Source: a virus
Taxonomy: Duplodnaviria; Heunggongvirae; Uroviricota; Caudoviricetes
Length of the DNA stretch: 64,000 nt
Virus record (IMG/VR): IMGVR_UViG_2609460125_000009
Direction: 5' to 3' (one strand)
The first letter of the stretch is position 1. Each line of letters opens with the position of its first letter. Positions 1,056 to 62,267 of the stretch are shown in pieces. Below the pieces are notes generated by a model. The model was not told the origin of the DNA. It searched no databases and saw nothing but the letters and a program-made list of their open reading frames with translations. A program made the position numbers and the translations under genes.

Positions 1056-1070
1056 AAAACAATTTGTTTT
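1056..1070. promoter_or_regulatory. palindromic operator-like site AAAACAA-T-TTGTTTT (motif family 1)
   Basis: Perfect inverted repeat; first occurrence marks the left edge of element-specific sequence. Confidence 0.5.
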
Positions 1071-1105
1071 CTATCTTTTGTTGATTGAGATAATAAGCCA
1101 CATAA

Positions 1106-1121
1106 GAAAACAAATTGTTTC
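1106..1121. promoter_or_regulatory. motif family 1 site GAAAACAAATTGTTTC
   Basis: Palindrome 13 bp upstream of the ATG at 1134, overlapping the RBS region. Confidence 0.55.
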
Positions 1122-1133
1122 GGAGTGGTTGAA

Positions 1134-1433
1134 ATGTTGAACATTACCCAAGCCTACCAGGTGGCATTGATCAGTTCATCTCATACATCAGAGGAAGATG
1201 CTCGCCGATTCATGATCGCAAGCAATGAGCTGGATTGGGTTTCACAAATTGATGGCGGTTGTATTGTCCACGCCGGGTTACAGGATGATGTCTGGAAAGA
1301 CGACTTGCGTCGATATGGTATATCCGAAGGCGCGATTGCTAACATTCAGAAAGTACTTGATGTAGGCTTTGACTCTGTACATTTTGATTGTGGTGCGCCG
1401 ATCGTTGAAGGGCTTGAGTGCTGGTGTTGGTAG
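1134..1433 (+). CDS. hypothetical early protein
   Basis: ORF with GGAG RBS; ATG 1134 preferred over the GTG at 1125; family 1 operator upstream. Confidence 0.45.
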   Translation: MLNITQAYQVALISSSHTSEEDARRFMIASNELDWVSQIDGGCIVHAGLQDDVWKDDLRRYGISEGAIANIQKVLDVGFDSVHFDCGAPIVEGLECWCW

Positions 1434-1564
1434 AGTGTATAAGCGGATCAATGAGTTACGGAAACAGTTAATAATGAGGAGCTTGTAATAAGCTGTATAC
1501 CCTAGAAAAGCTAGACTAGGGAATAAAATGACGTGAAACTGGGCGAGACAGTAAATAATTCCGA

Positions 1565-2794
1565 ATGATAATTGAACAAATAACCCCTTGCTCGGAGCTT
1601 GGAATGACTGATACCGCTTTTTCAAAATCGTTACAAAAAGAAGTCGATCCTGAGCAGTACTTGGCGCTAAAGAATTTAGATGACAGCTCGGTTCATGCTA
1701 TTGCCCGTGACGATATCATCTGCCCCATTTGCAAAGTTGGAGGTGGTTCGTTCGTTAGAGCCACTAGGAATGGTGGCTATCACAAGAAGGCGCATTTCAG
1801 ATTTACCGGTGAAGATGGTCAAGGCCATCATCCATCATGTGATTTCTATGGAGATAGACTAACATCTGAGGTGAAGCAGCACCTTGTCTCATTCACAAAA
1901 GATCGAACAAAGTATTCGCAGGTAATACGAAAGCTGGTCTGTGCCGGCATACAGGAAGGGATATTTACTCAAGAAAAAATGTGGCAGATGAGGGAATGGT
2001 TCTTCAATAAGCGAAAGGATTCCACATTTGAAATATGGTTAGAAAGCGAGCATTTAGACTGGCTTTATTATATTAGTGGGTTACGTGATGCATATCTAGC
2101 ATGGACAACTCCTGATATTCTACCTTTCGCGCCCATTCAGGTTACTGTGCCTGGTTTTTCTTGGAAGCGTGCGATTGACAAAGAGGTGCTAAGAGTTCAC
2201 ATCAAGACTCTCCAGCAATTGCGTGAAATTTCAGTCTCACATAGAGACATTGCTGTAATCTTAGAACACATAAACAATAATCGTGACCGCACAATTCTCG
2301 ATCCATCGCATTTGGAGGACGAGATAAGTAAGACCTATAAGCTTACTAGTTTTGTGATGGGCAATTACATTGAGTTTCAGACAAAAACGGTTAGCGACAG
2401 AGCATACGGGGAAGCTAAGTTTCTGGCATTTGCAGCACTTTTGTTGTTCGTGTCAGATTGGGACCTCAACATTGCTATTGGTAAGTTTTCTAAGATTGCC
2501 AGAGTGAAGGAGGTTGATGACATGCTGGCTGGTAATTTCATTGGTCTTAATCCTTACTTCCGATACGACCTGGCTAATGCAGTGAAGAGATTGCAGGATA
2601 ACTGGCCGATTGAATACCAAGAGTTGGAGCATTGGAATGTTGAGAAATCCATGCGTGACGCATATGAAAAGTGGCGTGCGACAGAGCCTGAATTCGCTCC
2701 ACCCCTATTGCCAGACTTGTATATTGCCAAACATGAGAAAGAAGTCGCACAAGACGAGCAAGTCAGGCAGTGGATTAAGAACGGGGATGTTTGA
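1565..2794 (+). CDS. hypothetical protein with N-terminal zinc-ribbon-like Cys/His cluster
   Basis: 409-aa ORF; CPICK…HHPSCDFYG motif; start uncertain (ATG 1604 has a better RBS). Confidence 0.5.
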   Translation: MIIEQITPCSELGMTDTAFSKSLQKEVDPEQYLALKNLDDSSVHAIARDDIICPICKVGGGSFVRATRNGGYHKKAHFRFTGEDGQGHHPSCDFYGDRLTSEVKQHLVSFTKDRTKYSQVIRKLVCAGIQEGIFTQEKMWQMREWFFNKRKDSTFEIWLESEHLDWLYYISGLRDAYLAWTTPDILPFAPIQVTVPGFSWKRAIDKEVLRVHIKTLQQLREISVSHRDIAVILEHINNNRDRTILDPSHLEDEISKTYKLTSFVMGNYIEFQTKTVSDRAYGEAKFLAFAALLLFVSDWDLNIAIGKFSKIARVKEVDDMLAGNFIGLNPYFRYDLANAVKRLQDNWPIEYQELEHWNVEKSMRDAYEKWRATEPEFAPPLLPDLYIAKHEKEVAQDEQVRQWIKNGDV

Positions 2795-2849
2795 GTGTAA
2801 TTAGCTTAATCAATCAGTTGATAATGGCGGTCACAATTTGATTCTTTTC

Positions 2850-3720
2850 TATAAGAATCCGTTGATCGCCACTACTCTTCTTCCATACCTGCAATCACAC
2901 CTTTAAATATCAATAAGTTATAGTTGTTTATACAATCAAGAAAACAACTGAATAACAGATCAACGAAACATCAACGCTTTCACCCGATTTGGTCTAAAAA
3001 ATTGACGTATTCACACATCACTTCTTATACCCGTAATTCTACGCAGCAGACAGCGCCACAGCGTCCAATTTTCACCACAGACGACCCAACACACTACCAA
3101 CAAAAACACACGCTCAAAATCGCTCCCGTTGCGTTACACAACCATATAAACAACTTATTTTCAGGCATAACAAAACAACTAAATAACACACATGCCATTC
3201 CCCAAAACAACCAACCTCTTTATGGCAGGCTACCGAAAAGACCCACCTCTTCTCCCCAGGCTACCGGACAACCAACCTAACTTTCACAGGCAATCCGAAA
3301 ACATTCATACGCGCGATACCCACGACACGCCATTACCCAAACAGCGAAGAAACACCAGAATCACTGAAACCCCAACGAAGCCTGTAACCGCAAGGTTTCT
3401 CTCAATCCCAAAAGACACGAAACATAACAATCACGGGAAACGCCATTACCCAATACACGAATAACTACAAAAGCCTTTCACACACTCCAGACAAACAACT
3501 CAAACACAATAACGAAAGGAATCGCCCACCTGCCATTACTCCATACACGGAGAAGAACAATCACCAAAACGACGAGAACACCCCATAGAAGAACCACCGC
3601 AAAACGAACGAAACCACATACACCGACAGAGAGAACAACACACCCAATTCACAAACAGAAATAGTCGCCGCATAGAACGTTCTGGAAGGGGTGAGCATTA
3701 ACGCCTATAGAGAGGTTGAG
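2850..3720 (+). other. strongly A+C-skewed non-coding region with degenerate direct repeats
   Basis: G and T are scarce on the given strand; no ORF >=60 aa on the opposite strand; repeated GCCATTACCCAA and CAGGCTACCG units. Confidence 0.6.
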
Positions 3721-3787
3721 ACAGATAAAACACGAAGAAAACACAACATGTATAGCGAACAAGACAGGTATGTATAAGTGGGGAGGG

Positions 3788-3811
3788 AAGGAGGGGTGTC
3801 GCCTCCTTTTT
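3788..3811 (+). terminator. terminator-like hairpin
   Basis: AAGGAGG…CCTCCTT stem followed by TTTTT. Confidence 0.4.
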
Positions 3812-3894
3812 CGTATTTATTCAACTCCTGATTTTATCCCCCGTAACACCCCTACGGTCAGCCTTCGATCCATACAGGGAAAAGGTTGCATCCC

Positions 3895-4015
3895 GCTACA
3901 GAAACGGCTGGGTTGCCTTCGGGGAACGGCTGGAGGTTTTCAGGGAAACGGTCGAGTTGCCTGTGTGGATTTCGGGAAAAGGCTCGATGCCGGTTCAGGA
4001 ACGGTGGAGTACCGG
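3895..4015. repeat. iteron-like direct repeats (GGGAAACGGC-type, ~21 bp period)
   Basis: Five tandem units: AGAAACGGCTGG, GGGAACGGCTGG, GGGAAACGGTCG, GGGAAAAGGCTCG, AGGAACGGTGG. Confidence 0.6.
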
Positions 4016-4341
4016 TATAGCGAGAGGGAGAGTTGCGGCTATCCACCTGTAATGTGCGGGAAGAAGAGAGGCGCTCACGTGCAGGCGGACTAACTTACCG
4101 TTGGACTCCCTCTGAATGCCCAGTTACAGCGTAATTGTGCCAGACAGCCAACGGGTCACAATCGATTTCAGTAGGTTTTCGGGGAGATGATTATTCTGCC
4201 CACCAGCCACCTTCGGCCACTAAATCAGAATAATGTAAAAAGTGTTCTCGGTACTGAACCTGAAAACTCACTGCCAAAACCACATTCACCGGAATAAAAT
4301 CCTTTTTCGCCTGTGCGTTATTGCGATAATAACACCATCAA

Positions 4342-4356
4342 GAAAACATGTTGTTT
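4342..4356. promoter_or_regulatory. motif family 1 site GAAAACATGTTGTTT
   Basis: Palindrome downstream of a GATAAT -10-like hexamer and upstream of the 4369 ORF. Confidence 0.5.
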
Positions 4357-4368
4357 AAGGATTGCTTT

Positions 4369-4698
4369 ATGTTTGCAAATATCGACATCAACCAAATCAA
4401 GAAATTAACTCAAAAAGAGTTTGACCAGTTCTATGAGCTGGAAGGTTGGTCTTCCACTCTGATTAATTCAAGATGGGTGCTGGAGCTGATGACTCGTGAT
4501 GATGCACCTGCTTTGATGATCAGCGACCTGGGTGAAGATGCTGACTTTATGGATATGAGCGAATTTTGTGTGGACACATACAACCGCAGCCAGAAGTACT
4601 ACTTCACATGCGATAGCGAAAATGACGTGATTTCTAAGGTCTATCTTCACCTCGTCCAGCATTGGGACGTTCAGGAGTTTCTTGAGGTATTCGCGTAA
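4369..4698 (+). CDS. hypothetical early protein
   Basis: ORF with AAGGA RBS; ATG 4369 preferred because the ATG at 4348 lies inside the operator. Confidence 0.45.
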   Translation: MFANIDINQIKKLTQKEFDQFYELEGWSSTLINSRWVLELMTRDDAPALMISDLGEDADFMDMSEFCVDTYNRSQKYYFTCDSENDVISKVYLHLVQHWDVQEFLEVFA

Positions 4699-4707
4699 TC
4701 CCAACCA

Positions 4708-4733
4708 AAGCCAGCATTGCTGGCTTAATTTCT
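4708..4733 (+). terminator. rho-independent terminator-like hairpin
   Basis: AAGCCAGC…GCTGGCTT stem. Confidence 0.5.
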
Positions 4734-4825
4734 CTATAGCCGCAGGGAAGAACCTGCATATCGCTCATGCACCTGATCATTATGCTTTGTAGCCGTTTTC
4801 TTATTGGTATTATTTACGCCATTGA

Positions 4826-4840
4826 GAAAACAAGTTGTTT
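4826..4840. promoter_or_regulatory. motif family 1 site GAAAACAAGTTGTTT
   Basis: Palindrome immediately upstream of the RBS of the 4852 ORF. Confidence 0.5.
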
Positions 4841-4851
4841 ACGGAGTTGTG

Positions 4852-5163
4852 ATGAAAAAATCATTGGTTCTTGGTCTGGACAAAGACCAGAAGAGAAAAG
4901 AGAAGCCTGCGCTGGTTGCTCAATTAACTTTGCTGGACATCGTTGCCAATGGAACCTCTATTCGTCTGTTCCGTGAAACAGCGGTGTCTTTCGATAAAAA
5001 CACCTTTACTCGTTATGTAATGAATGTTCGTCGCCAGCGTGGAAAAGGCTGGATGGCATTTCAAAGAATGTGGCCGGAACATCAGCTCGAACTGGCTTTG
5101 ATGGAAGTTAACCGCGTGGCCCAGCAAGAAATTCAGAGAGCATCAGTGATGGCAATAGCCTGA
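4852..5163 (+). CDS. hypothetical early protein (basic)
   Basis: ORF with GGAG RBS. Confidence 0.45.
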   Translation: MKKSLVLGLDKDQKRKEKPALVAQLTLLDIVANGTSIRLFRETAVSFDKNTFTRYVMNVRRQRGKGWMAFQRMWPEHQLELALMEVNRVAQQEIQRASVMAIA

Positions 5164-5197
5164 TAATGTGCAAGTGGTAATTAGTCGACAGTACGAC

Positions 5198-5226
5198 AGC
5201 CCCGCCATCCTTACGGGGCTTTTTTG
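5198..5226 (+). terminator. rho-independent terminator
   Basis: AGCCCCG…CGGGGCT stem followed by TTTTTT. Confidence 0.7.
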
Positions 5227-5230
5227 TATT

Positions 5231-5246
5231 GTAAGTACATACTTAC
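5231..5246. promoter_or_regulatory. motif family 2 palindrome GTAAGTACATACTTAC
   Basis: Perfect inverted repeat ~45 bp upstream of the 5290 ORF. Confidence 0.45.
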
Positions 5247-5289
5247 GATCATAGAATATAAAAATAACCAATACACTACGGAGAGTGAA

Positions 5290-5685
5290 ATGACCGTTAA
5301 ACGCGAAAAACTGACAGTTGATGTTTACTATGCCTCTGAAACCGCCGAAGGTAAGAATGTGGCAAAAATCACCGTTGTTACGTACAACACCGAAACTGGT
5401 GCCGAAGTACAGGCCAGTACGATCGTGCGTAAAGGTGATGCCTCCGGCGGCGAGTACGCGACTCAATACCAGTCCATTCTCGATGCAACTGACCCGCTGC
5501 TGCTGAAAATCGAGAACTACTTCCGCCAGGTTGATGAAGAGGTGTTTGAAACCATGATGAATATGGTTAACACCGTATTCGCCTCCAGCCTGAACACCAG
5601 CACCACCTGGATTGGCCAGTACGGTCTGCGCATTACCTCTGGCATTCCTGCCGACACCTTAATCCCTGAAAGCGTATTCGCTTAA
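5290..5685 (+). CDS. hypothetical protein
   Basis: ORF with GGAGAG RBS. Confidence 0.45.
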   Translation: MTVKREKLTVDVYYASETAEGKNVAKITVVTYNTETGAEVQASTIVRKGDASGGEYATQYQSILDATDPLLLKIENYFRQVDEEVFETMMNMVNTVFASSLNTSTTWIGQYGLRITSGIPADTLIPESVFA

Positions 5686-5695
5686 TCCTCTTTAA

Positions 5696-5722
5696 ATGGC
5701 GCGTAAACCGCGCCATTTTATT
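5696..5722 (+). terminator. rho-independent terminator
   Basis: ATGGCGCG…CGCGCCAT stem followed by TTTTATT. Confidence 0.65.
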
Positions 5723-5731
5723 AAGCCCGAT

Positions 5732-5746
5732 AACAATTTGTTTTCT
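5732..5746. promoter_or_regulatory. motif family 1 site AACAATTTGTTTTC
   Basis: Palindrome upstream of the 5803 ORF. Confidence 0.45.
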
Positions 5747-5802
5747 GCCTTATCTGATTTGTGAAAATGATTTCACTGAAGCAACTTAATAAGGAAACCA
5801 TC

Positions 5803-6177
5803 ATGGGACTTGATATCTATATCGAGACACAGCCTAAAAACGATCTGAATAACGAGGCATCCAGAAAGCGGGTTGCTTACTTCCGTAAGTTCAATGCGCT
5901 CGTTGGGTGGATGGAGCGCAACGTAGGTGAAGTCGAAAATTGTGAGCTTTTAGAATTAACGATGAATGACATTTGTTTTCTGAAGGCTCATTTGATGCAC
6001 ATAAACGAAAGTAATTGCGAAGAGTACTTGCCTACCCGGGAAGGTTTTTTCTTCGGCAGTCAGGAGTACGATGAAGGTTACTGGCATGATGTGGGGGAGT
6101 TGAAAGAGCTTGTGGAAGATCTGATTAAGAACCACGACTTTCACAATAACAGACTGACCTTCTGCGCCTGGTGGTAA
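5803..6177 (+). CDS. hypothetical early protein
   Basis: ORF with AAGGAAACC RBS; the longer frame from 5761 would start at GTG. Confidence 0.45.
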   Translation: MGLDIYIETQPKNDLNNEASRKRVAYFRKFNALVGWMERNVGEVENCELLELTMNDICFLKAHLMHINESNCEEYLPTREGFFFGSQEYDEGYWHDVGELKELVEDLIKNHDFHNNRLTFCAWW

Positions 6178-6179
6178 AT

Positions 6180-6323
6180 ATGGGCGATTTCAAGAAACGC
6201 CTGAAGGAGAGAGCCGAGATGGTCAGAAAGCGAAACGCCTCTTCTGTCATCAGATACGCAAGGCAGTTTAGTCGCAACAACAAATCAGTTGAGGAAAAGA
6301 TCCTTAGCGTAATCGGGCGATAA
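6180..6323 (+). CDS. small basic hypothetical protein (47 aa)
   Basis: Short ORF starting 2 nt after the stop of the previous gene; not in the supplied track because <60 aa. Confidence 0.3.
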   Translation: MGDFKKRLKERAEMVRKRNASSVIRYARQFSRNNKSVEEKILSVIGR

Positions 6324-6330
6324 TTATTAA

Positions 6331-6350
6331 GGCCACCAGCATTGGTGGTC
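6331..6350 (+). terminator. terminator-like hairpin GGCCACCAGCATTGGTGGTC
   Basis: Stem-loop without a strong T-run; near-identical copy at 6800. Confidence 0.4.
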
Positions 6351-6478
6351 TTAAATGACTTTTAATAACCGAAGGTTAGTTTGAAACCTGGCTATCAACT
6401 TCCAGAACCTTTCTTGTGTATTCAGCCTGTATTAACTTCTTTTATGCCTTATCTACACTGCGATAATTACACCAACAA

Positions 6479-6493
6479 GAAAACAACATGTTT
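6479..6493. promoter_or_regulatory. motif family 1 site GAAAACAACATGTTT
   Basis: Preceded by the conserved CGATAATTACACCAACAA promoter-like block. Confidence 0.5.
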
Positions 6494-6506
6494 ACGCAGT
6501 GAGGAT

Positions 6507-6963: not shown

Positions 6964-6977
6964 GAAAACAATTTGTT
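6964..6977. promoter_or_regulatory. motif family 1 site GAAAACAATTTGTT
   Basis: Preceded by the CGATAATTAACACCAACAA block. Confidence 0.5.
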
Positions 6978-6998
6978 ATTTACGATAAGGAATTAATC

Positions 6999-9846: not shown

Positions 9847-10371
9847 TCAAAAAGGCAAAATTCGTTCAACCCAATCGAACAAAACAACTATTTTTCTACC
9901 GTTCTCGACACGTAGTGTAACCTGACAAGCATCTGCGCCTGCTGACACCCCCTCAATTTCACGGCCATCCGCCATGTACACCCTTATAGATTTGTTTGCT
10001 TTGTAGGCTTGGTTGCAAATTGCAAAAAAATCGCGGCGTGATGGCCGATTATCGACATAATCAGGGTGAACTGTTAATCGACCTTTGAAATCGTGAGCGA
10101 TACTGTCAACCACACCTGATTCAATTGTACTAATGCGTTCAAGTGGGAGCCTTATACGATTTTCTTTGTCAAAAGGGGCTGGGCAAAGGTCAACTTTGTT
10201 GCGAGATGGCATGAGGCCATAAACGTACATGCAAAACGCCTGACCATCTTCGAGAGTGACCCTTACAGGAATTTGTTCTCTGCGCCAGAACATCAGTAGT
10301 TTTTCAACGTTAGTGTAATCTCGCGGCAAGAGTTCAGCTTGGATACCGTAGGTAATATCTTTGGTTGTCAT
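9847..10371 (-). CDS. hypothetical protein
   Basis: Start moved to the internal ATG (MTTKDITYG…) to avoid overlap with the upstream lipoprotein gene. Confidence 0.4.
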   Translation of the reverse strand: MTTKDITYGIQAELLPRDYTNVEKLLMFWRREQIPVRVTLEDGQAFCMYVYGLMPSRNKVDLCPAPFDKENRIRLPLERISTIESGVVDSIAHDFKGRLTVHPDYVDNRPSRRDFFAICNQAYKANKSIRVYMADGREIEGVSAGADACQVTLRVENGRKIVVLFDWVERILPF

Positions 10372-15696: not shown

Positions 15697-15963
15697 ATGA
15701 CGTTAACCGATAAACAAAAGGACATCATCAAAACGCTCAATCTCGGTTATGAGCGAGGTCATCTACTTGACCTGGACGAATTGCTTGAAGTTTTGCCGTA
15801 CAAGACAACTAAGCAAAGTATCCAGTTCTCAATTCGCGCTCTGATAAAAAAGGGGCTGGTGGAGAAAGGGCATACGCGCCAACGCAGTGACAATCGCTAT
15901 CACCGCCGAACTCTTGGGTTAACCACTTTAGGTCGAGCCAAAGCGAAGTTACTGGTGATGTAA
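15697..15963 (+). CDS. small DNA-binding protein (winged-helix-like)
   Basis: 88-aa basic ORF; HTH call is by pattern only. Confidence 0.4.
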   Translation: MTLTDKQKDIIKTLNLGYERGHLLDLDELLEVLPYKTTKQSIQFSIRALIKKGLVEKGHTRQRSDNRYHRRTLGLTTLGRAKAKLLVM

Positions 15964-16042: not shown

Positions 16043-16104
16043 CTTCGTAAGACATGCCAGACCTAATTAAACACCCCAGAAAACAAGTTGGTTAGCAGAT
16101 GCAG

Positions 16105-16119
16105 TAAACAAGTTGTTTT
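16105..16119. promoter_or_regulatory. motif family 1 site TAAACAAGTTGTTTT (degenerate second copy at 16078-16093)
   Basis: Upstream of the terminase small subunit gene; followed by a GAGCGC…GCGCTC hairpin. Confidence 0.5.
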
Positions 16120-16158
16120 AGAGCGCATGGACGCGCTCTGTGTGTTTTAGAGGGATCT

Positions 16159-46424: not shown

Positions 46425-46440
46425 GAAAACAAGTTGTTTC
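46425..46440. promoter_or_regulatory. motif family 1 site GAAAACAAGTTGTTTC
   Basis: Palindrome ~35 bp upstream of the ParA gene. Confidence 0.5.
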
Positions 46441-46474
46441 AGACGATAATTATATACGCAAAGGGAACTCTCCA

Positions 46475-47143
46475 ATGACCAAGATCTTTGTGGTTGGCGG
46501 CACAAAGGGCGGGCCTGGCAAATCCACCCTTGCCCAGCAAATTGCCGTTTGCCTTAAAGTCAAAAAGAAGAAGAAGGTTTATATCACTGATATAGATATT
46601 CAGCGCACGACAACAAGCTGGTGTGAAGACCGTCGACAGAACGAAGACCTTGAGCTGATTCCTTTTGCATACGTTCAGGATGACATCATTAAGCACCTAA
46701 AATCGCTTCAGGGTAGAGCTGAGTATGTAGTGGTAGATGCTGGTGGCTTCGACTCCGAAATTCAGCGACAAGCGATGCTGATGGCTGACGTTATCATTAT
46801 CCCGCTGCGTCCTAAGCGTCGTGATTTGAAATCTTTACGTGACATCGATCCTATTATCGACAATGTTCGCAATGTAAACGATAAAGTGAAGGTCCGCGCG
46901 GTCATGAACCAGTGCCCGGCTTTGCCATCACAAGTGTCTCGCATTCTGGCGGCTAAAGAGATTGTTGAGACGTTTGGAATCGAGTCTGCGCCAGTCAATC
47001 TGTATAACCGCAACGTCTATGATGATGCGGAAGAGTCTGGTCGTTCTATCTTTGAAATGACCGGTAGCGAGCGCGACAAAAAGGCGGAAGCCGAGTTTGA
47101 AGAATTTGTAGATTATCTGTTGAGTCTGGAGGAAGAAGAATAA
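46475..47143 (+). CDS. ParA-family partition ATPase
   Basis: Deviant Walker A GGTKGGPGKST. Confidence 0.8.
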   Translation: MTKIFVVGGTKGGPGKSTLAQQIAVCLKVKKKKKVYITDIDIQRTTTSWCEDRRQNEDLELIPFAYVQDDIIKHLKSLQGRAEYVVVDAGGFDSEIQRQAMLMADVIIIPLRPKRRDLKSLRDIDPIIDNVRNVNDKVKVRAVMNQCPALPSQVSRILAAKEIVETFGIESAPVNLYNRNVYDDAEESGRSIFEMTGSERDKKAEAEFEEFVDYLLSLEEEE

Positions 47144-47502
47144 TGTCCATGAAAATGGGTGACCTAGCAAAGCGCAAAGAGCCTGATGCACCGGCTAAGA
47201 ACACAACTCCTTTGCGCCAACCAGTCAGACCACAGGGACGCCCGACTCGTGGCAAAGAGAAAATTAAAAGCCGCACAATGTCACTGGAGGACGAATACTT
47301 CGAACTGCTGGAGATGATGAAGTTCATCCCTCGCTTCGAGAAGTTCACTCGTTCTGACGTGATTCGAGCAGCCATTTTCCATCTGGCAGAGAAGTCACCG
47401 CAGGAAATCGAGGACATCGTGAAATTGAATGAGGCGATCACCGCTGCCGATGTCACGATGCGTACCGATGAAATCAAACGAGAGTTGATGAAGAAAGGTT
47501 AA
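47143..47502 (+). CDS. partition adaptor / centromere-binding protein (ParG-like RHH, putative)
   Basis: Small ORF translationally coupled to ParA (TAATG); basic disordered N-terminus. Confidence 0.5.
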   Translation: MSMKMGDLAKRKEPDAPAKNTTPLRQPVRPQGRPTRGKEKIKSRTMSLEDEYFELLEMMKFIPRFEKFTRSDVIRAAIFHLAEKSPQEIEDIVKLNEAITAADVTMRTDEIKRELMKKG

Positions 47503-49354: not shown

Positions 49355-49369
49355 GAAAACAATTTGTTT
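49355..49369. promoter_or_regulatory. motif family 1 site GAAAACAATTTGTTT
   Basis: Palindrome ~20 bp upstream of the helicase gene. Confidence 0.5.
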
Positions 49370-49388
49370 AAAAAACAAAGGAAAGCAC

Positions 49389-56465: not shown

Positions 56466-56541
56466 GCCGGTTTAGCTCAGTTGGTAGAGCGCCTGCCTTG
56501 TAAGCAGGATGTCAGCGGTTCGATCCCGTTAACCGGCACCA
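56466..56541 (+). tRNA. tRNA-Thr (anticodon TGT)
   Basis: Acceptor GCCGGTT/AACCGGC, D-arm GCTC-AGTTGGTA-GAGC, anticodon loop CTTGTAA, T-loop TTCGATC. Confidence 0.8.
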
Positions 56542-56904
56542 ACACAACAGGTAAGAGCATTGGGCGAATCGGCGATACTGACCCACAAGCCCGTAAATCG
56601 ATAGAGTCAGACCAGTGCTCTTACCGTTGTGAGGAAGTGCAGCTCTTTGAAGCAACCAGAAGATAAGCATCTGGCTTCACAACACAACGATAAGATCATT
56701 ACGGTTAATCGTCGTTCATGTGCACAATGACTGGTCGAAAGGTAGTGATCTTACCGTTGTGGTGGATTCGCAGACTGATGCGATAGCTTTCTTGGATGTT
56801 AGGGAAATGCGGCCGCAAATCTTCCCTTTCGCGAGCGGTGATCGTCCGTAGTCCTAATTGGCTGCACCGTATGCCGGAGATTCAGTACCGGCCACCACAA
56901 CGGC

Positions 56905-56991
56905 CGGAGAGTAGGGAGCATGGTGCTCAAGCGGTCTTGAAAACCGTCCCATTGCGCAAGCGATGATGGTTCGATTCCATTACTCTCCGCC
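56905..56991 (+). tRNA. tRNA-Ser (anticodon TGA), long variable arm
   Basis: Acceptor GGAGAGT/ACTCTCC, anticodon loop CTTGAAA, T-loop TTCGATT; D-arm atypical. Confidence 0.55.
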
Positions 56992-57147
56992 AGACACAGC
57001 GTTGAGCGGTTTGGCCTTTTAATCACCCAGATTAAGACTCCGCTAACATAAACCAGACCGCTCAACGCTGTGATAGACAATTACGGCAGACGTTCTTAAC
57101 CATAGCTTGCTAACATCCTAGCAACACTTTTTTTCAGCGCAAAATTC

Positions 57148-57170
57148 AAAGGGGCTTCGGCCCCTTTTTT
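57148..57170 (+). terminator. rho-independent terminator
   Basis: AAAGGGGC…GCCCCTTT stem followed by TTTT. Confidence 0.7.
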
Positions 57171-57213
57171 GCAACTGAAAGAGTCAAGTCTACGAACTTT
57201 GTAGGAAGAAATA

Positions 57214-57564
57214 ATGACCAGCAAAGATAACACACCACTAAAAGTCACCCCTGAACACATTGAACAACTCATTCAAAGTGAACATTATTTCACTGCATAT
57301 GATGCCAGCCACGGGGATAACTTCATCTCCGTTTACAATTCAAAAACAGATATCGACAAATGTCATGAGTCGTTAAAACTCTTAACGTTCTGCGTTATGG
57401 TTCTCAAAAATGGATATACCGTAACGGGAAAATCTGCGTGCGTAAGACCAGAAATCTTCAACTTTGATGTTGGTCGCGAGTACGCTCGAAAAGATGCTAT
57501 CGATCAAATCTGGCCCCTGGAAGGCTATCTCCTGAAGCAAAAGTGGCATGAGGCAAAGCAATGA
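57214..57564 (+). CDS. hypothetical protein
   Basis: 116-aa ORF with RBS; overlaps the glutaredoxin start. Confidence 0.45.
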   Translation: MTSKDNTPLKVTPEHIEQLIQSEHYFTAYDASHGDNFISVYNSKTDIDKCHESLKLLTFCVMVLKNGYTVTGKSACVRPEIFNFDVGREYARKDAIDQIWPLEGYLLKQKWHEAKQ

Positions 57565-57806
57565 CGATCACTATCTACGGACGAGATAACTGCTCATTCT
57601 GCAAACGTGCGGTCGAGCTGGCGAAGCAACTAAAGGGACATGGCTACGGTGATTATGAGTACATCGACATCACCACTGCCGGTATCGACAAGGAAAAACT
57701 AAGTGAAATTGTTGGTAAACCGGTAGAGACTATCCCCCAAGTGCTGATCGATGGCCAACCGATTGGCGGATACACAGAACTGGCTGCATACGTCAGCACC
57801 CTCTGA
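57561..57806 (+). CDS. glutaredoxin / NrdH-like redoxin
   Basis: CSFC active site and TIPQV/GG motifs of the thioredoxin fold. Confidence 0.75.
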   Translation: MTITIYGRDNCSFCKRAVELAKQLKGHGYGDYEYIDITTAGIDKEKLSEIVGKPVETIPQVLIDGQPIGGYTELAAYVSTL

Positions 57807-57812
57807 TTTTAA

Positions 57813-57835
57813 CGGCTCACAGGAGCCGTTTTTAT
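57813..57835 (+). terminator. rho-independent terminator
   Basis: ACGGCTC…GAGCCGT stem followed by TTTTT. Confidence 0.65.
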
Positions 57836-58016
57836 TCCCACCAAACTCACTCCCGTTTCCCTTAAAATTCAAAAAACAACGTCAAAATGATTCCATACCT
57901 ACTATGTATGGAATCATTAGTAAAAATGAGTTACTTTTACTCTTGATCCTATAAGAATCTATGCCTAATATACTGTTTACTTATACAGTACATCGGCGTA
58001 ACTCGGTGATTGTCAT

Positions 58017-59120
58017 ATGAAAAATAGCTTTGACAGAGCACGCGCTGCGGAGAACACCTCAAAAGAGGCGATTGAGTATCTCGAAAGAGCATCTCAAATG
58101 CAGGCCGTTATGATCTCCCAGGTCAGCAATGACATGAGATTCTCGGACGCATTCATGTTATTCACTCGCTTATCTCTGCTGATAACAAGACGTCGGCCAG
58201 AGATCGCTGTTCATTGTATTTTGATACATGTTTTGCCGCACATTGCCGATGTAAAAGTAAGTGATATTAATAGGTTCATGGTGAACCAACTGGTCAACCC
58301 ACTAATACTGGATGGCAAAATTGTTATGGGTCGCCGCGTTTTCTCTCTGATGAAGCAGTTCCTCAGCTGGTGCGCCTTCCAGGGGATGATCGACGTGTCA
58401 CCGTTAAACGATATGTCACTTAACAAAGTTGCCGGTGGCGCAAAGCCCACACCTCGCGAGCGGAAGCTGACCGACGCAGAGGTATGGGTGTTCTGGAATA
58501 TATGGGACTACTTCAATGTGTGTGCTGGTACAAAATGGGCGGCCAGGCTATGTCTTGTATCCGCAAGACGACCTGACGAAGTACTGCGGGCTAAAAAAAG
58601 TGAGTTCAATCTTAAGCGTGGGGTTTGGAATCAAGGCAAGAGGAACAAATCTGCCCGTGAGCATTCTCTGCCTTTAAGCTCATTAATGCGCACTTGTATT
58701 GAAGAGTTGTTCGAATATGGTAAAGACAGCCAGTGGCTCGTGCCTTCGAATAAAAAAATCGGGAAAGACCTTCCTATGTCTAAAGTGGCAATAGCCCAGG
58801 CATTACGTCGTATTCTGGAACGACCAGAACTGATGGAGCTTGAGCCATTTACACCCCGAGATTTGCGCCGTACTGCGCGTAGTTACTTCCCAGCATTAGG
58901 CATAAGCCAGGAGGTATCACGTAAAATCATGAACCACAGTCTTGAGGGGATAGATCGGGTCTACGACCGGCACGATTATATGGACGAGATGCGAGACGCC
59001 TTAGAAAGTTTCTCGACGTACATCGCATCAATCGTAGAGCAACCGGATTTAGACGAAATTGACCACAAATTTAAGGGAGATCGTCTATCAACAGAGCTTA
59101 TTCGTGTAAATTTTTCATAG
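58017..59120 (+). CDS. tyrosine recombinase / integrase
   Basis: C-terminal catalytic pattern RDLRRTARS…H…VYDRH; N-terminal start uncertain. Confidence 0.6.
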   Translation: MKNSFDRARAAENTSKEAIEYLERASQMQAVMISQVSNDMRFSDAFMLFTRLSLLITRRRPEIAVHCILIHVLPHIADVKVSDINRFMVNQLVNPLILDGKIVMGRRVFSLMKQFLSWCAFQGMIDVSPLNDMSLNKVAGGAKPTPRERKLTDAEVWVFWNIWDYFNVCAGTKWAARLCLVSARRPDEVLRAKKSEFNLKRGVWNQGKRNKSAREHSLPLSSLMRTCIEELFEYGKDSQWLVPSNKKIGKDLPMSKVAIAQALRRILERPELMELEPFTPRDLRRTARSYFPALGISQEVSRKIMNHSLEGIDRVYDRHDYMDEMRDALESFSTYIASIVEQPDLDEIDHKFKGDRLSTELIRVNFS

Positions 59121-59501
59121 AGACTTTATGGCCTCAACAACCTTTTGTGATGCGCCTTTCTCTTTACCGAATCGCTCGTTATATGCAGCAAGAACCTGTT
59201 TTTCGTCCTCGTTAAGAGGAGCAGTGCCTTCTTTGTATAAAAATGCTGCGAGTTCGGGTTGGCGTTCTTCCAGCACCATCATCATAAGACGACTTGGCTC
59301 AATACCCAGTGCCAGCGCCAGCGGACGAACCTTATCGATAGGCAAAGGAATTTTGCCGCTTTTAATTAAAGAAAGGTTGTTGGCGTTTTTATACCCAATT
59401 GTTTTGGCTATCTGGGCCTGGCTCATAGGTGAGGATTCAATCAACCCTGCGATAAAAGCAGCGTAGCGACTTTCTATAAATTCAATCTTGTTATCAGACA
59501 T
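59115..59501 (-). CDS. XRE-family HTH transcriptional repressor
   Basis: HTH (…SQAQIAKTIGYKNANNLSLIKSG…); divergent from a small plus-strand ORF. Confidence 0.65.
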   Translation of the reverse strand: MSDNKIEFIESRYAAFIAGLIESSPMSQAQIAKTIGYKNANNLSLIKSGKIPLPIDKVRPLALALGIEPSRLMMMVLEERQPELAAFLYKEGTAPLNEDEKQVLAAYNERFGKEKGASQKVVEAIKSL

Positions 59502-59752
59502 GGTTACAACCTTTGCGCGTTCAATTCTCTCTGGTAAGTGCTTACCGATATTACATCAAAGGTTAGGGTTGTAAAGCTATTATCATTTTTTTCGATAGGC
59601 ACTTAAAAGACCGGTTAAAGGCCATTGCACGGAGAAAAATTAGCCCAAAATAGGTAAGAAAATCAACTTGCATATGATATGAATGTATTCAGTATTGATA
59701 CAAATTTTAGTAGTATTCCTTACCATAGTATAAGTTAGAATGGATTGATTGA

Positions 59753-59965
59753 ATGAACACCACTATTTCCAGCCTAATCGCTCTTGAGATCGGACACGTA
59801 CAGAAATTAGCTGATGAGTGTGTAGCTGACATCCTCACCGATCTACCGAATGAGCAGATTCAGGTTGGTGTGAATGACACAACTGGATTTATATTCGAAC
59901 TTAACAACAAACGCTTCACGCTTCTCAATACCGGCTCCGGGTCTTTAGCCGTCAGAATCTGTTAA
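59753..59965 (+). CDS. hypothetical small protein
   Basis: 70-aa ORF divergent from the XRE gene. Confidence 0.35.
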   Translation: MNTTISSLIALEIGHVQKLADECVADILTDLPNEQIQVGVNDTTGFIFELNNKRFTLLNTGSGSLAVRIC

Positions 59966-60032
59966 CCCCTCTTCTCCCTGCGCGAATGGCTTAGTTCCCT
60001 GTTCGCGCAGTGCTACATTAAACACACTAGTA

Positions 60033-60046
60033 AATAATTTGTTTTC
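60033..60046. promoter_or_regulatory. motif family 1 half-site AATAATTTGTTTTC
   Basis: Upstream of the CobT-like gene. Confidence 0.4.
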
Positions 60047-60063
60047 ATAACAAAGGATTAGCC

Positions 60064-62172
60064 ATGTCTAAAAAACGTTCCATCAAAGAGGTTCAGGACT
60101 TCCGTGACAGTGTAAAACGAGTAGTCGCTCTCCTTTCAGGTAAAAACATCCCTGTTGCAGAACGAGGGGACGACGCTTATGTACGCTATAACGATGATGG
60201 AGAGCCAATTCTCGTAAACATCCCATCAATCCCGGATAACGCAACACCGGCATTGATGAATGCTGTGCGCGGATTTCTCGATCATGAGGTTGCTCACATT
60301 TTGTTTACCGATATTCGTGTGTCCAACAAAATGAGAGAAAAAGGACGCGTTCCTTCCTGGTCGCTATGGAATGCCTTAGAAGACGTGTTCATCGAGCGAA
60401 AAATGGGTCAGGTCTTTAACGGAACAAGACGTAATCTGATGGCAACTCAGCGCCTTATAATCGAAAAAGTCTTTAAACCAAAGGCTTCAGAGGCTATTGC
60501 TTATTGTGGCAAAGATCAGCGCGCGCTTTTTCTAAACTTCTTTCTCTGTCCGGTTGTAAGAGCCTGGGATGGCCAAGCACCGTTCGTAGATTTCATGGAT
60601 GAATATTGGCCTGTCATTGAGAAACCAATTTCATTATTAAAAGAACATGGTATCGATGTGGCCGTGCGTAACATGTCTTGCACCGAGGATTGTGTAAAGG
60701 TGGCTGCGACCATAGCTAAGATCCTCAAAGACACTGAAAGTGAAAGCAAAGGTAAGGAGTCAGCTCCGGGAAAAACTTCCGATCCTTCAGACGCTGACCA
60801 GACGGATGCCTCTGGAGAAAACAATGAAGACAACGAAGATCATGAGACACCCTCAGCGTTAGATAATCACAAATCTATCAAATCAGAATCACACAGTAAG
60901 CACAAACATGATAATAACGACGGTGATGATTCAGATAATTCTGAATCATCAGAAACAATATTCGATGATACAGAAAATGATAAAGAGGTATCAGATTCTG
61001 ATGCTTCTGATAACGCGGTGTCAGAATCATTTACCGCTGACCACGAAAAAAGAAAAACGACAGAAGACGGCTCTTCAGATATCCCAACTCCGTCAAAAAT
61101 GAGTCTGGAAGAGGCTTTAGAGGAGCTGGATAGCATAGAAGATGAAGTCGGAGGCATGACAGAAGATGCTCTATCCGAAACGATTAAAAGCGAGTTAACA
61201 GAAACCTCGAAAAGCGAATACAGGCCATACAATCGCTCATACGACTTCATCGGCTCGATTGATCAGGCAGAAGCCCATATCAAACGGCTTATTAAAACAT
61301 TCTCCGATATTGATTTAGGAGGATATCCAATCAGCCGCTATCGCATCGTTCCTGAAGGCAACCAGCTCTTCGACAAATATATTGAAAAGCATCTTTCGTC
61401 AGGTGTTTCGTCGACGCTGGCAAAAGACCTGGAGCGAGCAATAGCAAGCAGAAACAGAGTTCAGTTTATACCGGGCCAGCGTCGGGGGCGCATTCATGGT
61501 TCTAGTATCTACAGATTAGCAATGAATGATGATCGCGTGTTTCGTAAAAAAGAAGAATCTAAAGCCGTTAACGCCTGTGTTCAGCAAGTGATTGATTTAT
61601 CAGGTTCAATGAGTGGTATAACGATACAATTGGCTCTTGCAAGTGCATATACCATCGCCGATGCCCTTGATCGAATAAATGTTCCCAACATTATCACCGG
61701 CTTCACTACATTTGGTAGTCATATGGCGGCAGGAGAACTTAAGGCTGTCAAGTATGAGTTCTCTCGCTTTGAATCTTTAATGCTACCTATCATCAAAAAT
61801 TGGAATGAAAAGGTAAATTCTCGCGAAGTTCGCTCACGTATGGGGTGCGTAGGCTACACATTCCCACTTCTTAATAACGTGGATGGTGAAAGCATAGCCA
61901 GCCTTGCATCGTTATTTTCCGGTCGCATGGAGGACAGGAAGATCATGCTTGTTCTGAGTGATGGCGCGCCGTGGGCTGTTGGGAGAGGTTTTGACGCTCA
62001 TTTGCGTTCGGTTGCGAAGCAAATTGAAACGCAGACTGACATTGATTTGATGGCAATTGGCATCATGACTGACGCACCGGAGAGATTATACTCAAATCAT
62101 GCCCTGGTAACGAGCGTTGATAGTCTTGGTTCATCTGTAGTTACTGAACTATCTCGTATCATTTTAAAGTGA
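60064..62172 (+). CDS. CobT-like protein with C-terminal vWA domain
   Basis: Long acidic linker; MIDAS-like DLSGSMSG in the C-terminal domain. Confidence 0.6.
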   Translation: MSKKRSIKEVQDFRDSVKRVVALLSGKNIPVAERGDDAYVRYNDDGEPILVNIPSIPDNATPALMNAVRGFLDHEVAHILFTDIRVSNKMREKGRVPSWSLWNALEDVFIERKMGQVFNGTRRNLMATQRLIIEKVFKPKASEAIAYCGKDQRALFLNFFLCPVVRAWDGQAPFVDFMDEYWPVIEKPISLLKEHGIDVAVRNMSCTEDCVKVAATIAKILKDTESESKGKESAPGKTSDPSDADQTDASGENNEDNEDHETPSALDNHKSIKSESHSKHKHDNNDGDDSDNSESSETIFDDTENDKEVSDSDASDNAVSESFTADHEKRKTTEDGSSDIPTPSKMSLEEALEELDSIEDEVGGMTEDALSETIKSELTETSKSEYRPYNRSYDFIGSIDQAEAHIKRLIKTFSDIDLGGYPISRYRIVPEGNQLFDKYIEKHLSSGVSSTLAKDLERAIASRNRVQFIPGQRRGRIHGSSIYRLAMNDDRVFRKKEESKAVNACVQQVIDLSGSMSGITIQLALASAYTIADALDRINVPNIITGFTTFGSHMAAGELKAVKYEFSRFESLMLPIIKNWNEKVNSREVRSRMGCVGYTFPLLNNVDGESIASLASLFSGRMEDRKIMLVLSDGAPWAVGRGFDAHLRSVAKQIETQTDIDLMAIGIMTDAPERLYSNHALVTSVDSLGSSVVTELSRIILK

Positions 62173-62187
62173 ACAAAACAGCCTTAA

Positions 62188-62210
62188 CGATAAGTAACCA
62201 CTTACGATAG
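62188..62210. promoter_or_regulatory. motif family 2 site GATAAGTAACCACTTACGATAG
   Basis: Inverted repeat between the CobT-like and CobS-like genes. Confidence 0.4.
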
Positions 62211-62267
62211 ATAATGATATATTTATATAAGAAGTTGAACGCTCATTAGAAAACAAAGGAAAAACGC

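What the first reader, a model, noticed from the sequence alone, without database searches (positions are those of the whole stretch)
1056..62259. Element-wide palindromic operator GAAAACAA-N-TTGTTTTC at 12 sites upstream of early, partition, replication and CobT/S genes
A near-perfect 15-16 bp inverted repeat recurs between a -10-like hexamer and the RBS. It precedes six small early ORFs (1134, 4369, 4852, 5803, 6507, 6999), the terminase small subunit (16159), ParA (46475), the DnaB-like helicase (49389), the CobT-like gene (60064) and, as a half-site, the CobS-like gene (62268). Three sites share an extended upstream block (CGATAAT(T)AACACCAACAA). This looks like a single regulon under one sequence-specific DNA-binding protein, or a dedicated promoter class. 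The regulator is not identified; the XRE protein at 59115-59501 and the wHTH protein at 15697-15963 are candidates.
Basis: seen in the sequence. Interest (0 to 1): 0.7.

Follow-up and report, generated by a model that had tools for sequence, protein, structure and literature searches.

The report
Dispersed operator palindrome in SSU5-like phage-plasmid

Summary
GAAAACAA-N-TTGTTTww (invariant core AAACAA-N-TTGTTT) occurs at 13 strong sites in the window against about 0.5 expected, and all 13 are intergenic. The window is an SSU5-like phage-plasmid, 98% identical to Escherichia phage Cyrano. The motif is unchanged in SSU5, Klebsiella and Y. pestis pMT1 relatives, and absent from a syntenic Moellerella relative and from unrelated phages.

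Sites sit at fixed positions around sigma-70 extended -10 promoters. One class starts 11-12 nt after the -10. The other ends exactly 17 nt before it, and two promoters carry both. There are no compensatory changes, the RNA hairpin is weak, and the downstream genes are at background in published lysogen RNA-seq. I read it as a double-stranded DNA operator set for a repressor, not a promoter class.

- The XRE protein is missing from SSU5 and has a different palindrome at its own promoter.
- The wHTH protein is silent in lysogens.
- My best candidate, about 40%, is the small ribbon-helix-helix-like protein encoded after ParA (47143-47502).
- The rival is a FljA-family tandem Sm/Hfq-like protein (9847-10365) acting on the mRNA leaders.

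The CobS "half-site" is only an A-rich ribosome-binding site. Binding has not been tested.

The parts
1055..1071 (+). Operator, class B (inverted orientation, TAAAACAATTTGTTTTC). It ends 17 nt before the -10 at 1089-1094 and is the upstream partner of site 1106 (51 bp centre to centre).
1086..1094 (+). Extended -10 promoter element TGAGATAAT, flanked by operators 1055 and 1106.
   Evidence: sequence only; no transcription start data
1106..1122 (+). Operator, class A (GAAAACAAATTGTTTCG). It starts 11 nt after the -10 and abuts the GGAG RBS of ORF 1134-1433.
3146..3162 (+). It lies in an A/C-rich non-coding stretch. No convincing promoter was found. It is conserved in SSU5, pJN2-26 and pKqq.
4342..4358 (+). 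Operator, class A, 11 nt after TGCGATAAT (4322-4330), directly before the RBS of ORF 4369-4698.
4826..4842 (+). Operator, class A, 12 nt after TGGTATTAT (4805-4813), before ORF 4852-5163.
5729..5745 (+). Operator, class B (GATAACAATTTGTTTTC). It follows a terminator-like hairpin and ends 17 nt before TGTGAAAAT (5760-5768). In this cassette the class A partner has decayed.
6479..6495 (+). Operator, class A, 11 nt after TGCGATAAT (6459-6467), before ORF 6507-6794.
6964..6980 (+). Operator, class A, 12 nt after GATAAT (6946-6951), before ORF 6999-7481.
16079..16095 (+). First of two operators upstream of terS (GAAAACAAGTTGGTTAG).
16104..16120 (+). Second terS operator (GTAAACAAGTTGTTTTA), 25 bp from the first. 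It is followed at once by a terminator-like hairpin (16121-16138) and a T-tract, then the terS RBS.
46425..46441 (+). Operator upstream of parA (GAAAACAAGTTGTTTCA). Its left arm is the only block in the parA upstream region that is invariant in five clades, including Moellerella.
46475..47143 (+). Small Walker-type ParA (222 aa; AAA_31/MipZ/CbiA; no N-terminal DNA-binding domain).
47143..47502 (+). Best candidate binder. This 119-aa ParA partner has a start that overlaps the ParA stop (TAATG). It has an N-terminal MGDLAKRK tail, and an invariant IKSRTMSLEDE segment followed by two helices (FTRSDVIRAAI), which is a ribbon-helix-helix-like pattern. Its Cyrano orthologue is expressed in the lysogen (89 against background 9.8).
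49355..49371 (+). Operator upstream of the DnaB-like helicase. The central base is T, A, C or G in four clades, and the flanks diverge.
60030..60046 (+). Operator upstream of the CobT-like gene (GTAAATAATTTGTTTTC), 10 nt after TGCTACATT (60011-60019).
9847..10365 (-). Rival candidate binder: a FljA-family protein (PF03614, E = 1.7e-82). The model shows two tandem Sm/Hfq-like domains. Alleles are hypervariable. It is present in every motif-bearing clade and absent from the motif-less clade.
59115..59501 (-). It is disfavoured because it has its own different palindrome at 59533-59546.
15697..15963 (+). It is disfavoured because its orthologue is silent in the lysogen.

Best explanation
The palindrome is a multi-copy operator on double-stranded DNA. 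The element is an SSU5-like phage-plasmid.

Most of its early promoters, and several others, are host sigma-70 promoters with an extended -10 (TGnGATAAT) and a poor -35. One operator copy lies over the start of the transcript (about +5 to +21). In some promoters a second, inverted copy lies over the -35 region (about -46 to -30). In both copies the better half-site faces the promoter core.

A plasmid-encoded repressor made in the plasmid (lysogenic) state binds these sites. Probably two dimers bind per site, one on each AAACAA arm. This blocks RNA polymerase at about 11 promoters in the window and about 18-21 sites in a whole genome. The silenced genes are the small early genes, DnaB, CobT and terS. 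The same protein partly represses the parA operon, which is autoregulation.

The most likely binder is the 119-aa protein encoded immediately after ParA (47143-47502). I infer that it is a ribbon-helix-helix centromere-binding protein of a type Ib partition system. It would then work like omega of pSM19035 or ParG, acting both as partition adaptor and as global repressor.

Shown: the motif, its enrichment, its fixed geometry, its conservation, and the silence of its target genes in a lysogen.

Inferred: that the promoters are real, that binding occurs on DNA, and the identity of the binder. I put about 0.75 on the DNA operator/repressor reading and about 0.4 on this particular protein.
For: Enrichment and location:
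- 13 strong sites against about 0.5 expected, all intergenic.

Geometry:
- in six sequences, about 24 sites start 11-12 nt after a -10, usually TGnGATAAT.
- 13 of 13 upstream sites end exactly 17 nt before a -10. Paired sites are 51 bp apart.
- The upstream class is the reverse complement of the downstream class.

Sequence rather than structure is conserved:
- in 77 site instances positions 3-8 and 10-15 are nearly invariant.
- The central base is evenly A, C, G or T. There are no compensatory pair changes. T-G and C-A single-arm deviations are similarly rare (3 and 5).
- the RNA hairpin is weak (-2 to -5 kcal/mol, z about 0).

Expression:
- (LF82 lysogen RNA-seq, PMC9928086 S1 table): motif-preceded Cyrano genes are at background. 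Examples are terS 7.1, CobT 7.8, CYRAN_58 5.7 and early ORFs 5.7-25, against background 9.8. This holds despite strong-looking promoters.
- The parA operon is moderately expressed (50-89).

Specificity to the family:
-.

For the ParA partner:
- Its start overlaps the ParA stop, and ParA is a small Walker type.
- The IKSRT(M/V)S-EDE and (F/L)(T/S)RSDV(I/F)RAA(I/L) segments are near-identical in all clades, although overall identity falls to 29-50%. This matches the invariance of the motif.
- The model has a coil followed by two helices at the expected place.
- Two family members hit Pfam RHH_1 just below threshold on that segment (E = 0.005 and 0.11).
- The parA-proximal site is the only deeply conserved block upstream of parA, even in Moellerella. 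There is no other repeat array near the par locus.
Against: - No binding data of any kind exist, and no transcription start mapping.
- pMT1 lacks this par module yet keeps 7 sites. pMT1 is a young, decayed element, so this is weak evidence.
- Moellerella keeps the protein with an almost unchanged putative DNA-reading strand, but has lost all sites except a degenerate one at parA. This fits 'ancestral par operator, later expanded', but equally fits 'binder is something else'.
- The phyletic pattern fits the FljA-like protein better: it is present exactly where the motif is present.
- Most of the prophage is silent in lysogens, so silence of the target genes is a weak test.
Confidence: 0.55

Rival explanations
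1. The motif acts in the mRNA leader. The FljA-family protein (9847-10365, minus strand) binds the transcribed element just 5' of the Shine-Dalgarno sequence. It represses translation, and perhaps destabilises the mRNA, of about 20 operons. This is what Salmonella FljA does at fliC.
For: - Pfam PF03614, E = 1.7e-82.
- FljA is reported to block fliC mRNA translation (PMC2652032).
- The protein is present in every motif-bearing clade (35-100% identity). It is absent or unrecognisable in the motif-less Moellerella-like clade.
- It is expressed in lysogens (log2 7-8 against about 3).
- It is conserved in non-flagellated hosts (Klebsiella, Y. pestis), so it probably has an internal target.
- The Salmonella/Citrobacter fliC leader carries CAAGTTGT directly 5' of its SD, which matches the motif core.
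- In class A sites the motif ends 0-8 nt before the SD in most cases.
Against: - Class B sites lie upstream of the -10, right after terminator hairpins, so they are not in the leader of the gene they precede.
- Spacing is fixed to the -10, not to the SD (0-33 nt).
- The hairpin is not stable and shows no covariation.
- Target mRNAs are at background in the lysogen, whereas fliC mRNA stays detectable under FljA.
- The protein is hypervariable (53-100% identity in near-identical elements), while the motif is invariant.
- The phyletic correlation rests on one independent loss.
Confidence: 0.12
2. The XRE repressor (59115-59501) is the binder, and SSU5 is simply a repressor-less lytic derivative that kept the operators.
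For: - It is expressed in the lysogen (95.8) and is annotated as the putative master repressor (PMC9928086).
- The recognition-helix region GYKNANNLSLIKSGK is fairly conserved in motif-bearing clades and changed at three positions in Moellerella.
- SSU5 lacks the int-XRE module.
Against: - No copy of the motif lies in its own 251-bp divergent control region.
- That region instead holds GGTAAGTGCTTACC, which is conserved in pJN2-26 and pMT1. It belongs to a second dispersed palindrome, TAGGTAAGnnCTTACCTA, with 7 sites against 0.14 expected.
- Overall identity is 43-65% across clades with an invariant motif.
Confidence: 0.05
3. A lytic-cycle protein binds the sites to shut off early transcription or switch to late genes. 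The candidates are the wHTH protein 15697-15963, a ParB_N protein, or the 71-aa 54867-55082 product. Silence in lysogens would then have another cause.
For: - The wHTH protein is the best-conserved small candidate (78-89% in motif-bearing clades, 56-62% in the motif-less clade).
- It lies next to the terS double site.
- The 54867-55082 product shares the FljA-like phyletic pattern.
Against: - All of these are at background in the lysogen (5-9.5), where the extended -10 promoters are nevertheless silent.
- None has a significant DNA-binding family match.
Confidence: 0.07
4. A host transcription factor of Enterobacteriaceae/Yersiniaceae binds the sites.
For: - The motif is present in elements from Escherichia, Salmonella, Klebsiella, Enterobacter, Citrobacter and Yersinia.
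- It is absent from the relative hosted by Moellerella (Morganellaceae).
Against: - I know of no E. coli regulator with this consensus (own knowledge, not tested).
- The host genome could not be scanned with these tools.
- The invariance and the parA-proximal ancestral site point to an element-encoded factor.
Confidence: 0.06
5. It is a dedicated promoter class read by a phage-specific sigma factor or polymerase.
For: - The block from the -10 to the palindrome is conserved in several early promoters.
Against: - Both orientations and two positions relative to ordinary extended -10 elements.
- The distance to the -10-like element varies at DnaB and ParA.
- The extended block is explained by paralogous cassettes.
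Confidence: 0.03

Closest known systems
Phage-plasmid P1: C1 repressor with more than a dozen operators (Op sites) scattered over the genome (own knowledge)
   Same: One repressor holds many separate operons of a plasmid prophage silent through dispersed copies of one 17-bp operator that overlaps promoters.
   Different: P1 operators are asymmetric (ATTGCTCTAATAAATTT), whereas these are palindromic. No C1 homologue was looked for. The flanking double-operator geometry around extended -10 promoters is not the P1 pattern.
Omega of pSM19035 and ParG of TP228: ribbon-helix-helix centromere-binding proteins of type Ib partition systems that also repress transcription (own knowledge; ParG/parH in PMC3130281, listed)
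   Same: A small Walker ParA is followed by a small protein with a flexible basic N-terminal tail and a beta-helix-helix-like segment. There is a binding motif at the parA promoter and short repeat units about 7 bp apart centre to centre. For omega, the same protein controls several unrelated promoters.
   Different: Omega and ParG sites are arrays of 7-10 heptads or tetramer boxes. Here each site is a single inverted pair, and about 20 sites are spread over 100 kb and control phage lytic genes. The fold and binding of the window's protein are not shown.
Phage-plasmid N15: four separate inverted-repeat centromere sites (IR1-4) bound by SopB (PMC7205306)
   Same: A phage-plasmid whose partition protein recognises palindromes dispersed through the phage genome rather than one tandem array.
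   Different: SopB is a large HTH ParB of a type Ia system. There are four sites, not about 20. A regulatory role for these sites is from my own recollection and was not verified here.
Salmonella FljA acting on the fliC leader
   Same: The same protein family (PF03614) is encoded in the window. The target lies between promoter and Shine-Dalgarno, and the CAAGTTGT core is shared with the fliC leader.
   Different: FljA has one target and acts on mRNA. Here there are about 20 sites, some of them outside transcribed leaders, and the target mRNAs are absent in lysogens.
PeSL (promoter-early stem-loop) cassettes of T4-type phages (own knowledge)
   Same: Repeated roughly 70-95-bp intergenic cassettes with a terminator hairpin and an early sigma-70 promoter flank small variable early ORFs.
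   Different: PeSLs are not described as carrying a repressor palindrome. Here the same palindrome also occurs without cassette homology at ParA, DnaB, CobT and terS.

Membership tests
Dispersed-operator repressor regulon of a plasmid prophage (P1 C1/Op type) | Many copies of one operator consensus, far above chance, dispersed over the genome | tested here: met
   13 sites against about 0.5 expected in the window; 18 in Cyrano; 21 in SSU5
Dispersed-operator repressor regulon of a plasmid prophage (P1 C1/Op type) | Operators overlap promoters | tested here: inconclusive
   Fixed spacing to extended -10 elements, but there is no transcription start mapping. The simple sigma-70 scan did not call these promoters because the -35 is poor.
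Dispersed-operator repressor regulon of a plasmid prophage (P1 C1/Op type) | Target operons silent in the lysogen | tested here: met
   Cyrano lysogen RNA-seq: targets at background, except the parA operon and weakly DnaB
Dispersed-operator repressor regulon of a plasmid prophage (P1 C1/Op type) | Binder is a C1-family repressor | not tested
   No search with P1 C1 was run
Type Ib partition system with RHH centromere-binding protein acting as repressor (omega / ParG type) | Small Walker-type ParA without an N-terminal DNA-binding domain | tested here: met
   222 aa; AAA_31, MipZ and CbiA hits cover the protein from residue 2
Type Ib partition system with RHH centromere-binding protein acting as repressor (omega / ParG type) | Small partner gene immediately downstream, co-translated | tested here: met
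   The ATG at 47143 overlaps the ParA stop in TAATG. The pair is conserved in 797 plasmids.
Type Ib partition system with RHH centromere-binding protein acting as repressor (omega / ParG type) | Partner has a ribbon-helix-helix fold | tested here: inconclusive
Type Ib partition system with RHH centromere-binding protein acting as repressor (omega / ParG type) | Partner binds repeats at the parA promoter and at other promoters | not testable with these tools
   The motif is present at parA and is the only deeply conserved block there. Binding needs EMSA or ChIP.
FljA-type post-transcriptional repression | Regulator belongs to PF03614 | tested here: met
   E = 1.7e-82, 275.8 bits against a cut-off of 24
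FljA-type post-transcriptional repression | Target element lies in the transcribed leader next to the Shine-Dalgarno | tested here: inconclusive
   True for class A sites. Not true for class B sites (1055, 5729, and 13 of 13 such sites in relatives).
FljA-type post-transcriptional repression | Target mRNA still made but not translated | tested here: not met
   Target mRNAs are at background in the lysogen. This is indirect, since degradation could mimic it.
CI/Cro-type XRE immunity switch | Operators of the repressor lie in its own divergent control region | tested here: not met
   No GAAAACAA-type site in 59502-59752. A different palindrome lies at 59533.

The most novel reading that the evidence does not exclude
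The motif is an RNA (or dual DNA/RNA) operator for the hypervariable FljA-family tandem Sm/Hfq-like protein. SSU5-like phage-plasmids would then run a global post-transcriptional regulon of about 20 operons through a phage-encoded Hfq-like repressor. The flagellar phase-variation repressor FljA would be a domesticated single-target offshoot of that system.
Probability: 0.12. Interest if true: 0.8.

Novelty: new member of a known kind. Interest (0 to 1): 0.6.

Why it matters
SSU5-like phage-plasmids are very common in clinical Enterobacteriaceae. About 800 PLSDB plasmids carry the par partner or the FljA-like gene. The group includes pHCM2-type plasmids of S. Typhi, pMT1 of Y. pestis and carbapenemase-carrying Klebsiella elements.

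How these elements hold their lytic genes silent as plasmids is not described in the literature I could search. This motif gives a concrete map of one regulon, with about 20 operators and their promoter geometry. A second palindrome gives a map of another.

The work also narrows the binder to two testable proteins. If the partition adaptor is the repressor, plasmid segregation and maintenance of lysogeny are wired together in this family. This would extend the omega/KorB idea to a phage. The sites would also be practical handles for derepressing or curing these elements.

Tried and rejected
- **RNA structure.** Nine leaders were folded. The motif hairpin is marginal and often not in the MFE structure. 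Rfam found only three tRNAs.
- **Covariation.** There is none; deviations are on one arm only.
- **Unrelated genomes.** An IMG/VR scan for GAAAACAANTTGTTT gave multiple sites only in SSU5-like contigs. Other hits were single or coding matches in AT-rich contigs.
- **E. coli K-12 fliC leader.** No related palindrome.
- **Simple sigma-70 scan.** It did not call the motif-linked promoters, because it requires a -35 match. I therefore relied on my own -10 spacing analysis.
- **Centromere array near the par locus.** No tandem repeats were found.
- **Phyletic profiling** of all Cyrano ORFs and of 80 IMG/VR loci. This gave one independent motif-loss event, which is too few to separate candidates cleanly.
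- **Primary FljA papers.** Yamamoto and Kutsukake 2006 and the PNAS 2006 paper are not held, so the FljA binding site in fliC is taken from the sequence only.
- **CobS half-site.** Rejected as a site.
- **Weak matches** at 9880, 11118 and 42950 (scores 12-13.5). The first two lie in coding sequence and the third at a gene junction. I did not count them.

Full report
**What the window is.** Megablast of 44000-64000 finds Escherichia phage Cyrano (the phage-plasmid pLF82 of E. coli LF82) and CMS-2020a at 97-98% identity, and Salmonella phage SSU5 at about 80%. The window corresponds to Cyrano coordinates from about 92 kb, through the record ends, to about 47 kb. It is therefore 64 kb of a roughly 108-kb SSU5-like phage-plasmid. 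It holds a block of small early ORFs, a minus-strand block, the structural and lysis genes, parA, replication genes, tRNAs, an int-XRE module, and CobT/CobS.

- GAAAACAANTTGTTTTC with up to 3 mismatches gives 15 matches against 0.79 expected.
- The 16-bp version without a central base is not enriched, so the odd spacing is real.
- A symmetrised weight matrix separates 13 strong sites (score 18-25.5) from everything else (13.5 or lower).
- All 13 are intergenic in a window that is 89% coding.
One at 3146 was missed.
- The CobS 'half-site' is only the A-rich ribosome-binding context AACAAAGGA, which DnaB and CobT also have.

**Anatomy.** In 77 distinct site instances from seven sequences, positions 3-8 and 10-15 are nearly invariant (AAACAA / TTGTTT). 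The central base is evenly A, C, G or T. The outer two positions are directional rather than complementary. Two classes exist.
- Class A (GAAAACAA-N-TTGTTTww) starts 11-12 nt after a -10 hexamer that usually has the extended form TGnGATAAT. It runs up to the ribosome-binding site.
- Class B is its reverse complement (wwAAACAA-N-TTGTTTTC). It follows a terminator-like hairpin and ends exactly 17 nt before the -10, in 13 of 13 cases.
- Where both flank one promoter (1055/1106; several in SSU5, pJN2-26, pMT1 and pKqq) they are 51 bp apart, and the better half-site faces the promoter core.
- The early promoters are paralogous roughly 95-bp cassettes in which one or the other copy has sometimes decayed.
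- The sites at ParA, DnaB, CobT and terS share no flanking homology with the cassettes.
- At terS two sites 25 bp apart are followed by a terminator-like hairpin before the RBS.

**Conservation.**
- The same motif occurs at 18 sites in Cyrano and 21 in SSU5, with no scores between 10 and 17.
- There are about 16 sites in Klebsiella pJN2-26 and 7 in Y. pestis pMT1.
- There are 12 in 40 kb of a divergent K. quasipneumoniae plasmid, and sites at ParA and DnaB in K. pneumoniae CP027615.
- At orthologous promoters the flanks diverge while the core stays and the central base drifts. At DnaB it is T, A, C and G in four clades.
- A syntenic Moellerella plasmid and six related IMG/VR loci have no sites, except a degenerate one at parA whose left arm is intact.
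- Unrelated phages do not carry the motif in multiple copies.

**DNA or RNA?** I favour double-stranded DNA.
- Class B copies lie upstream of the promoter they accompany.
- Spacing is fixed to the -10 rather than to the Shine-Dalgarno (0-33 nt).
- There is no covariation and no wobble bias.
- The hairpin is thermodynamically marginal.
- In published RNA-seq of the LF82 lysogen, the genes behind the sites are at background even though their promoters look strong.
- The parA operon, which must work in the plasmid state, is the exception at 5-9 times background. That is what an autoregulated operator would give.

**Who binds it?**
- *XRE.* The XRE gene is missing from SSU5 and only 43-65% identical elsewhere. 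Its own control region lacks the motif. Instead it has GGTAAGTGCTTACC, a member of a second dispersed palindrome, TAGGTAAGnnCTTACCTA. That palindrome has 7 sites in the window against 0.14 expected, and 18-20 in relatives.
- *Proteins silent in the lysogen.* The wHTH protein, both ParB_N proteins and the 71-aa 54867-55082 product are silent there.
- *FljA-family protein.* Phyletic profiling singled out this protein (PF03614). It is present in every motif-bearing clade and not recognisable in the motif-less one, and it is expressed in lysogens. Its model, however, is two tandem Sm/Hfq-like domains. This fits the reported action of FljA on fliC mRNA but not a promoter-flanking DNA palindrome. 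It is also hypervariable while the motif is invariant. The Salmonella fliC leader does share CAAGTTGT with the motif, next to its SD, so I keep this as the main rival.
- *ParA partner (47143-47502), my preferred candidate.* Its start overlaps the ParA stop, and ParA is a small Walker type. It has a GxLxKR-type N-terminal tail. It has an invariant IKSRTMSLEDE-helix-helix segment that looks like a ribbon-helix-helix, with sub-threshold RHH_1 hits in two relatives. The putative DNA-reading residues are conserved wherever the motif is, even at 48-50% overall identity. It is expressed in the lysogen. The parA-proximal site is the only deeply conserved element of the parA upstream region, and no other repeat array exists there. 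By analogy with type Ib systems (omega, ParG; own knowledge) the partner should bind at its own promoter, and this motif is the only candidate site.
- *Weaknesses of that candidate.* The fold is not established. pMT1 keeps sites without the protein. Moellerella keeps the protein without the regulon.

**Comparison with what is known.** The arrangement works like the P1 C1/Op regulon. If the partition partner is the binder, it also works like omega of pSM19035, or the dispersed SopB sites of N15. I found no description of this motif or regulon in the searchable literature. I file it as a new member of a known kind, a dispersed repressor-operator regulon of a plasmid prophage. The binder is still open.

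**Scores.** The finding is solid and conserved in a clinically widespread element family. It makes the question of how these elements maintain lysogeny directly testable. The kind of system is familiar. Interest 0.6.

Noticed in passing
window 12754-12771, 18045-18062, 19552-19569, 21468-21485, 43826-43843, 48574-48591, 59531-59548: A second dispersed palindrome, TAGGTAAGnnCTTACCTA, has 7 matches against 0.14 expected. SSU5 has 18 sites, pJN2-26 has 20, pMT1 has 11, and Moellerella has a few. It precedes the ParB1 operon, portal, holin, the 48596 gene and the XRE gene itself. It is often preceded by TTGAAAA, as if it sat in a promoter spacer. It is probably the XRE operator set or a middle/late promoter class.
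   Followed up: partly
window 9847-10449 (-): A FljA-family protein (PF03614) modelled as two tandem Sm/Hfq-like domains. Alleles range from 53 to 100% identity between otherwise near-identical phage-plasmids; the window and Cyrano differ by 22% here while flanking genes are 97-100% identical. It is conserved even in non-flagellated hosts (Klebsiella, Y. pestis).
   Followed up: partly
window 16019-16150: The terS leader has an AT-rich TAAATATATAC...GGAAGCAGGCT block that is conserved, as TATATAAATA(c/t), in all clades including Moellerella. It is reminiscent of a T4-type late promoter. Then come the two operators and a terminator-like hairpin GAGCGCatggacGCGCTC plus a T-tract before the RBS. 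This suggests the late operon may also need antitermination or a late factor.
   Followed up: no
window 2800-3190: The orphan strong site 3146 lies in an A/C-rich, apparently non-coding stretch (…ccaacaaaaacacacgctcaaaatcgctcccgttgcgtt…). The stretch is conserved in SSU5, pJN2-26 and pKqq and is followed by more aaaacaa repeats. No promoter or ORF could be assigned. It could be a non-coding RNA or a replication-related site.
   Followed up: no
window 1046-7005: The early promoters are paralogous roughly 95-bp cassettes (terminator hairpin, operator, extended -10 promoter, operator, RBS) flanking small ORFs of unknown function. The layout resembles the PeSL cassettes of T4-type phages and suggests cassette-mediated shuffling of early genes.
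   Followed up: partly
SSU5 (L004) 42525-42761 versus window 58017-59965: The integrase, XRE and 70-aa ORF module is entirely absent from phage SSU5, which otherwise keeps both palindrome sets. This would fit SSU5 being a repressor-less (lytic) derivative.
   Followed up: partly
L131 (K. pneumoniae CP027615) 35640-35725: In this divergent relative the CobT-like gene is preceded not by the motif but by a different inverted repeat, CCCATAAATAAtaagcaTTTATTTATGGG.
   Followed up: no
window 56295-56538: Three adjacent tRNA genes (Rfam). This stretch is 89% identical to the tRNA clusters of the unrelated phage-plasmids P7 and D6 (tRNA-Thr/Asn, plus tRNA-Ser in D6), which points to exchange between phage-plasmid families.
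   Followed up: no
window 40603-40909: A 120-bp tandem repeat (about 2.2-2.5 copies, 74-75% matches) inside the large tail-fibre gene 38504-42661.
   Followed up: no
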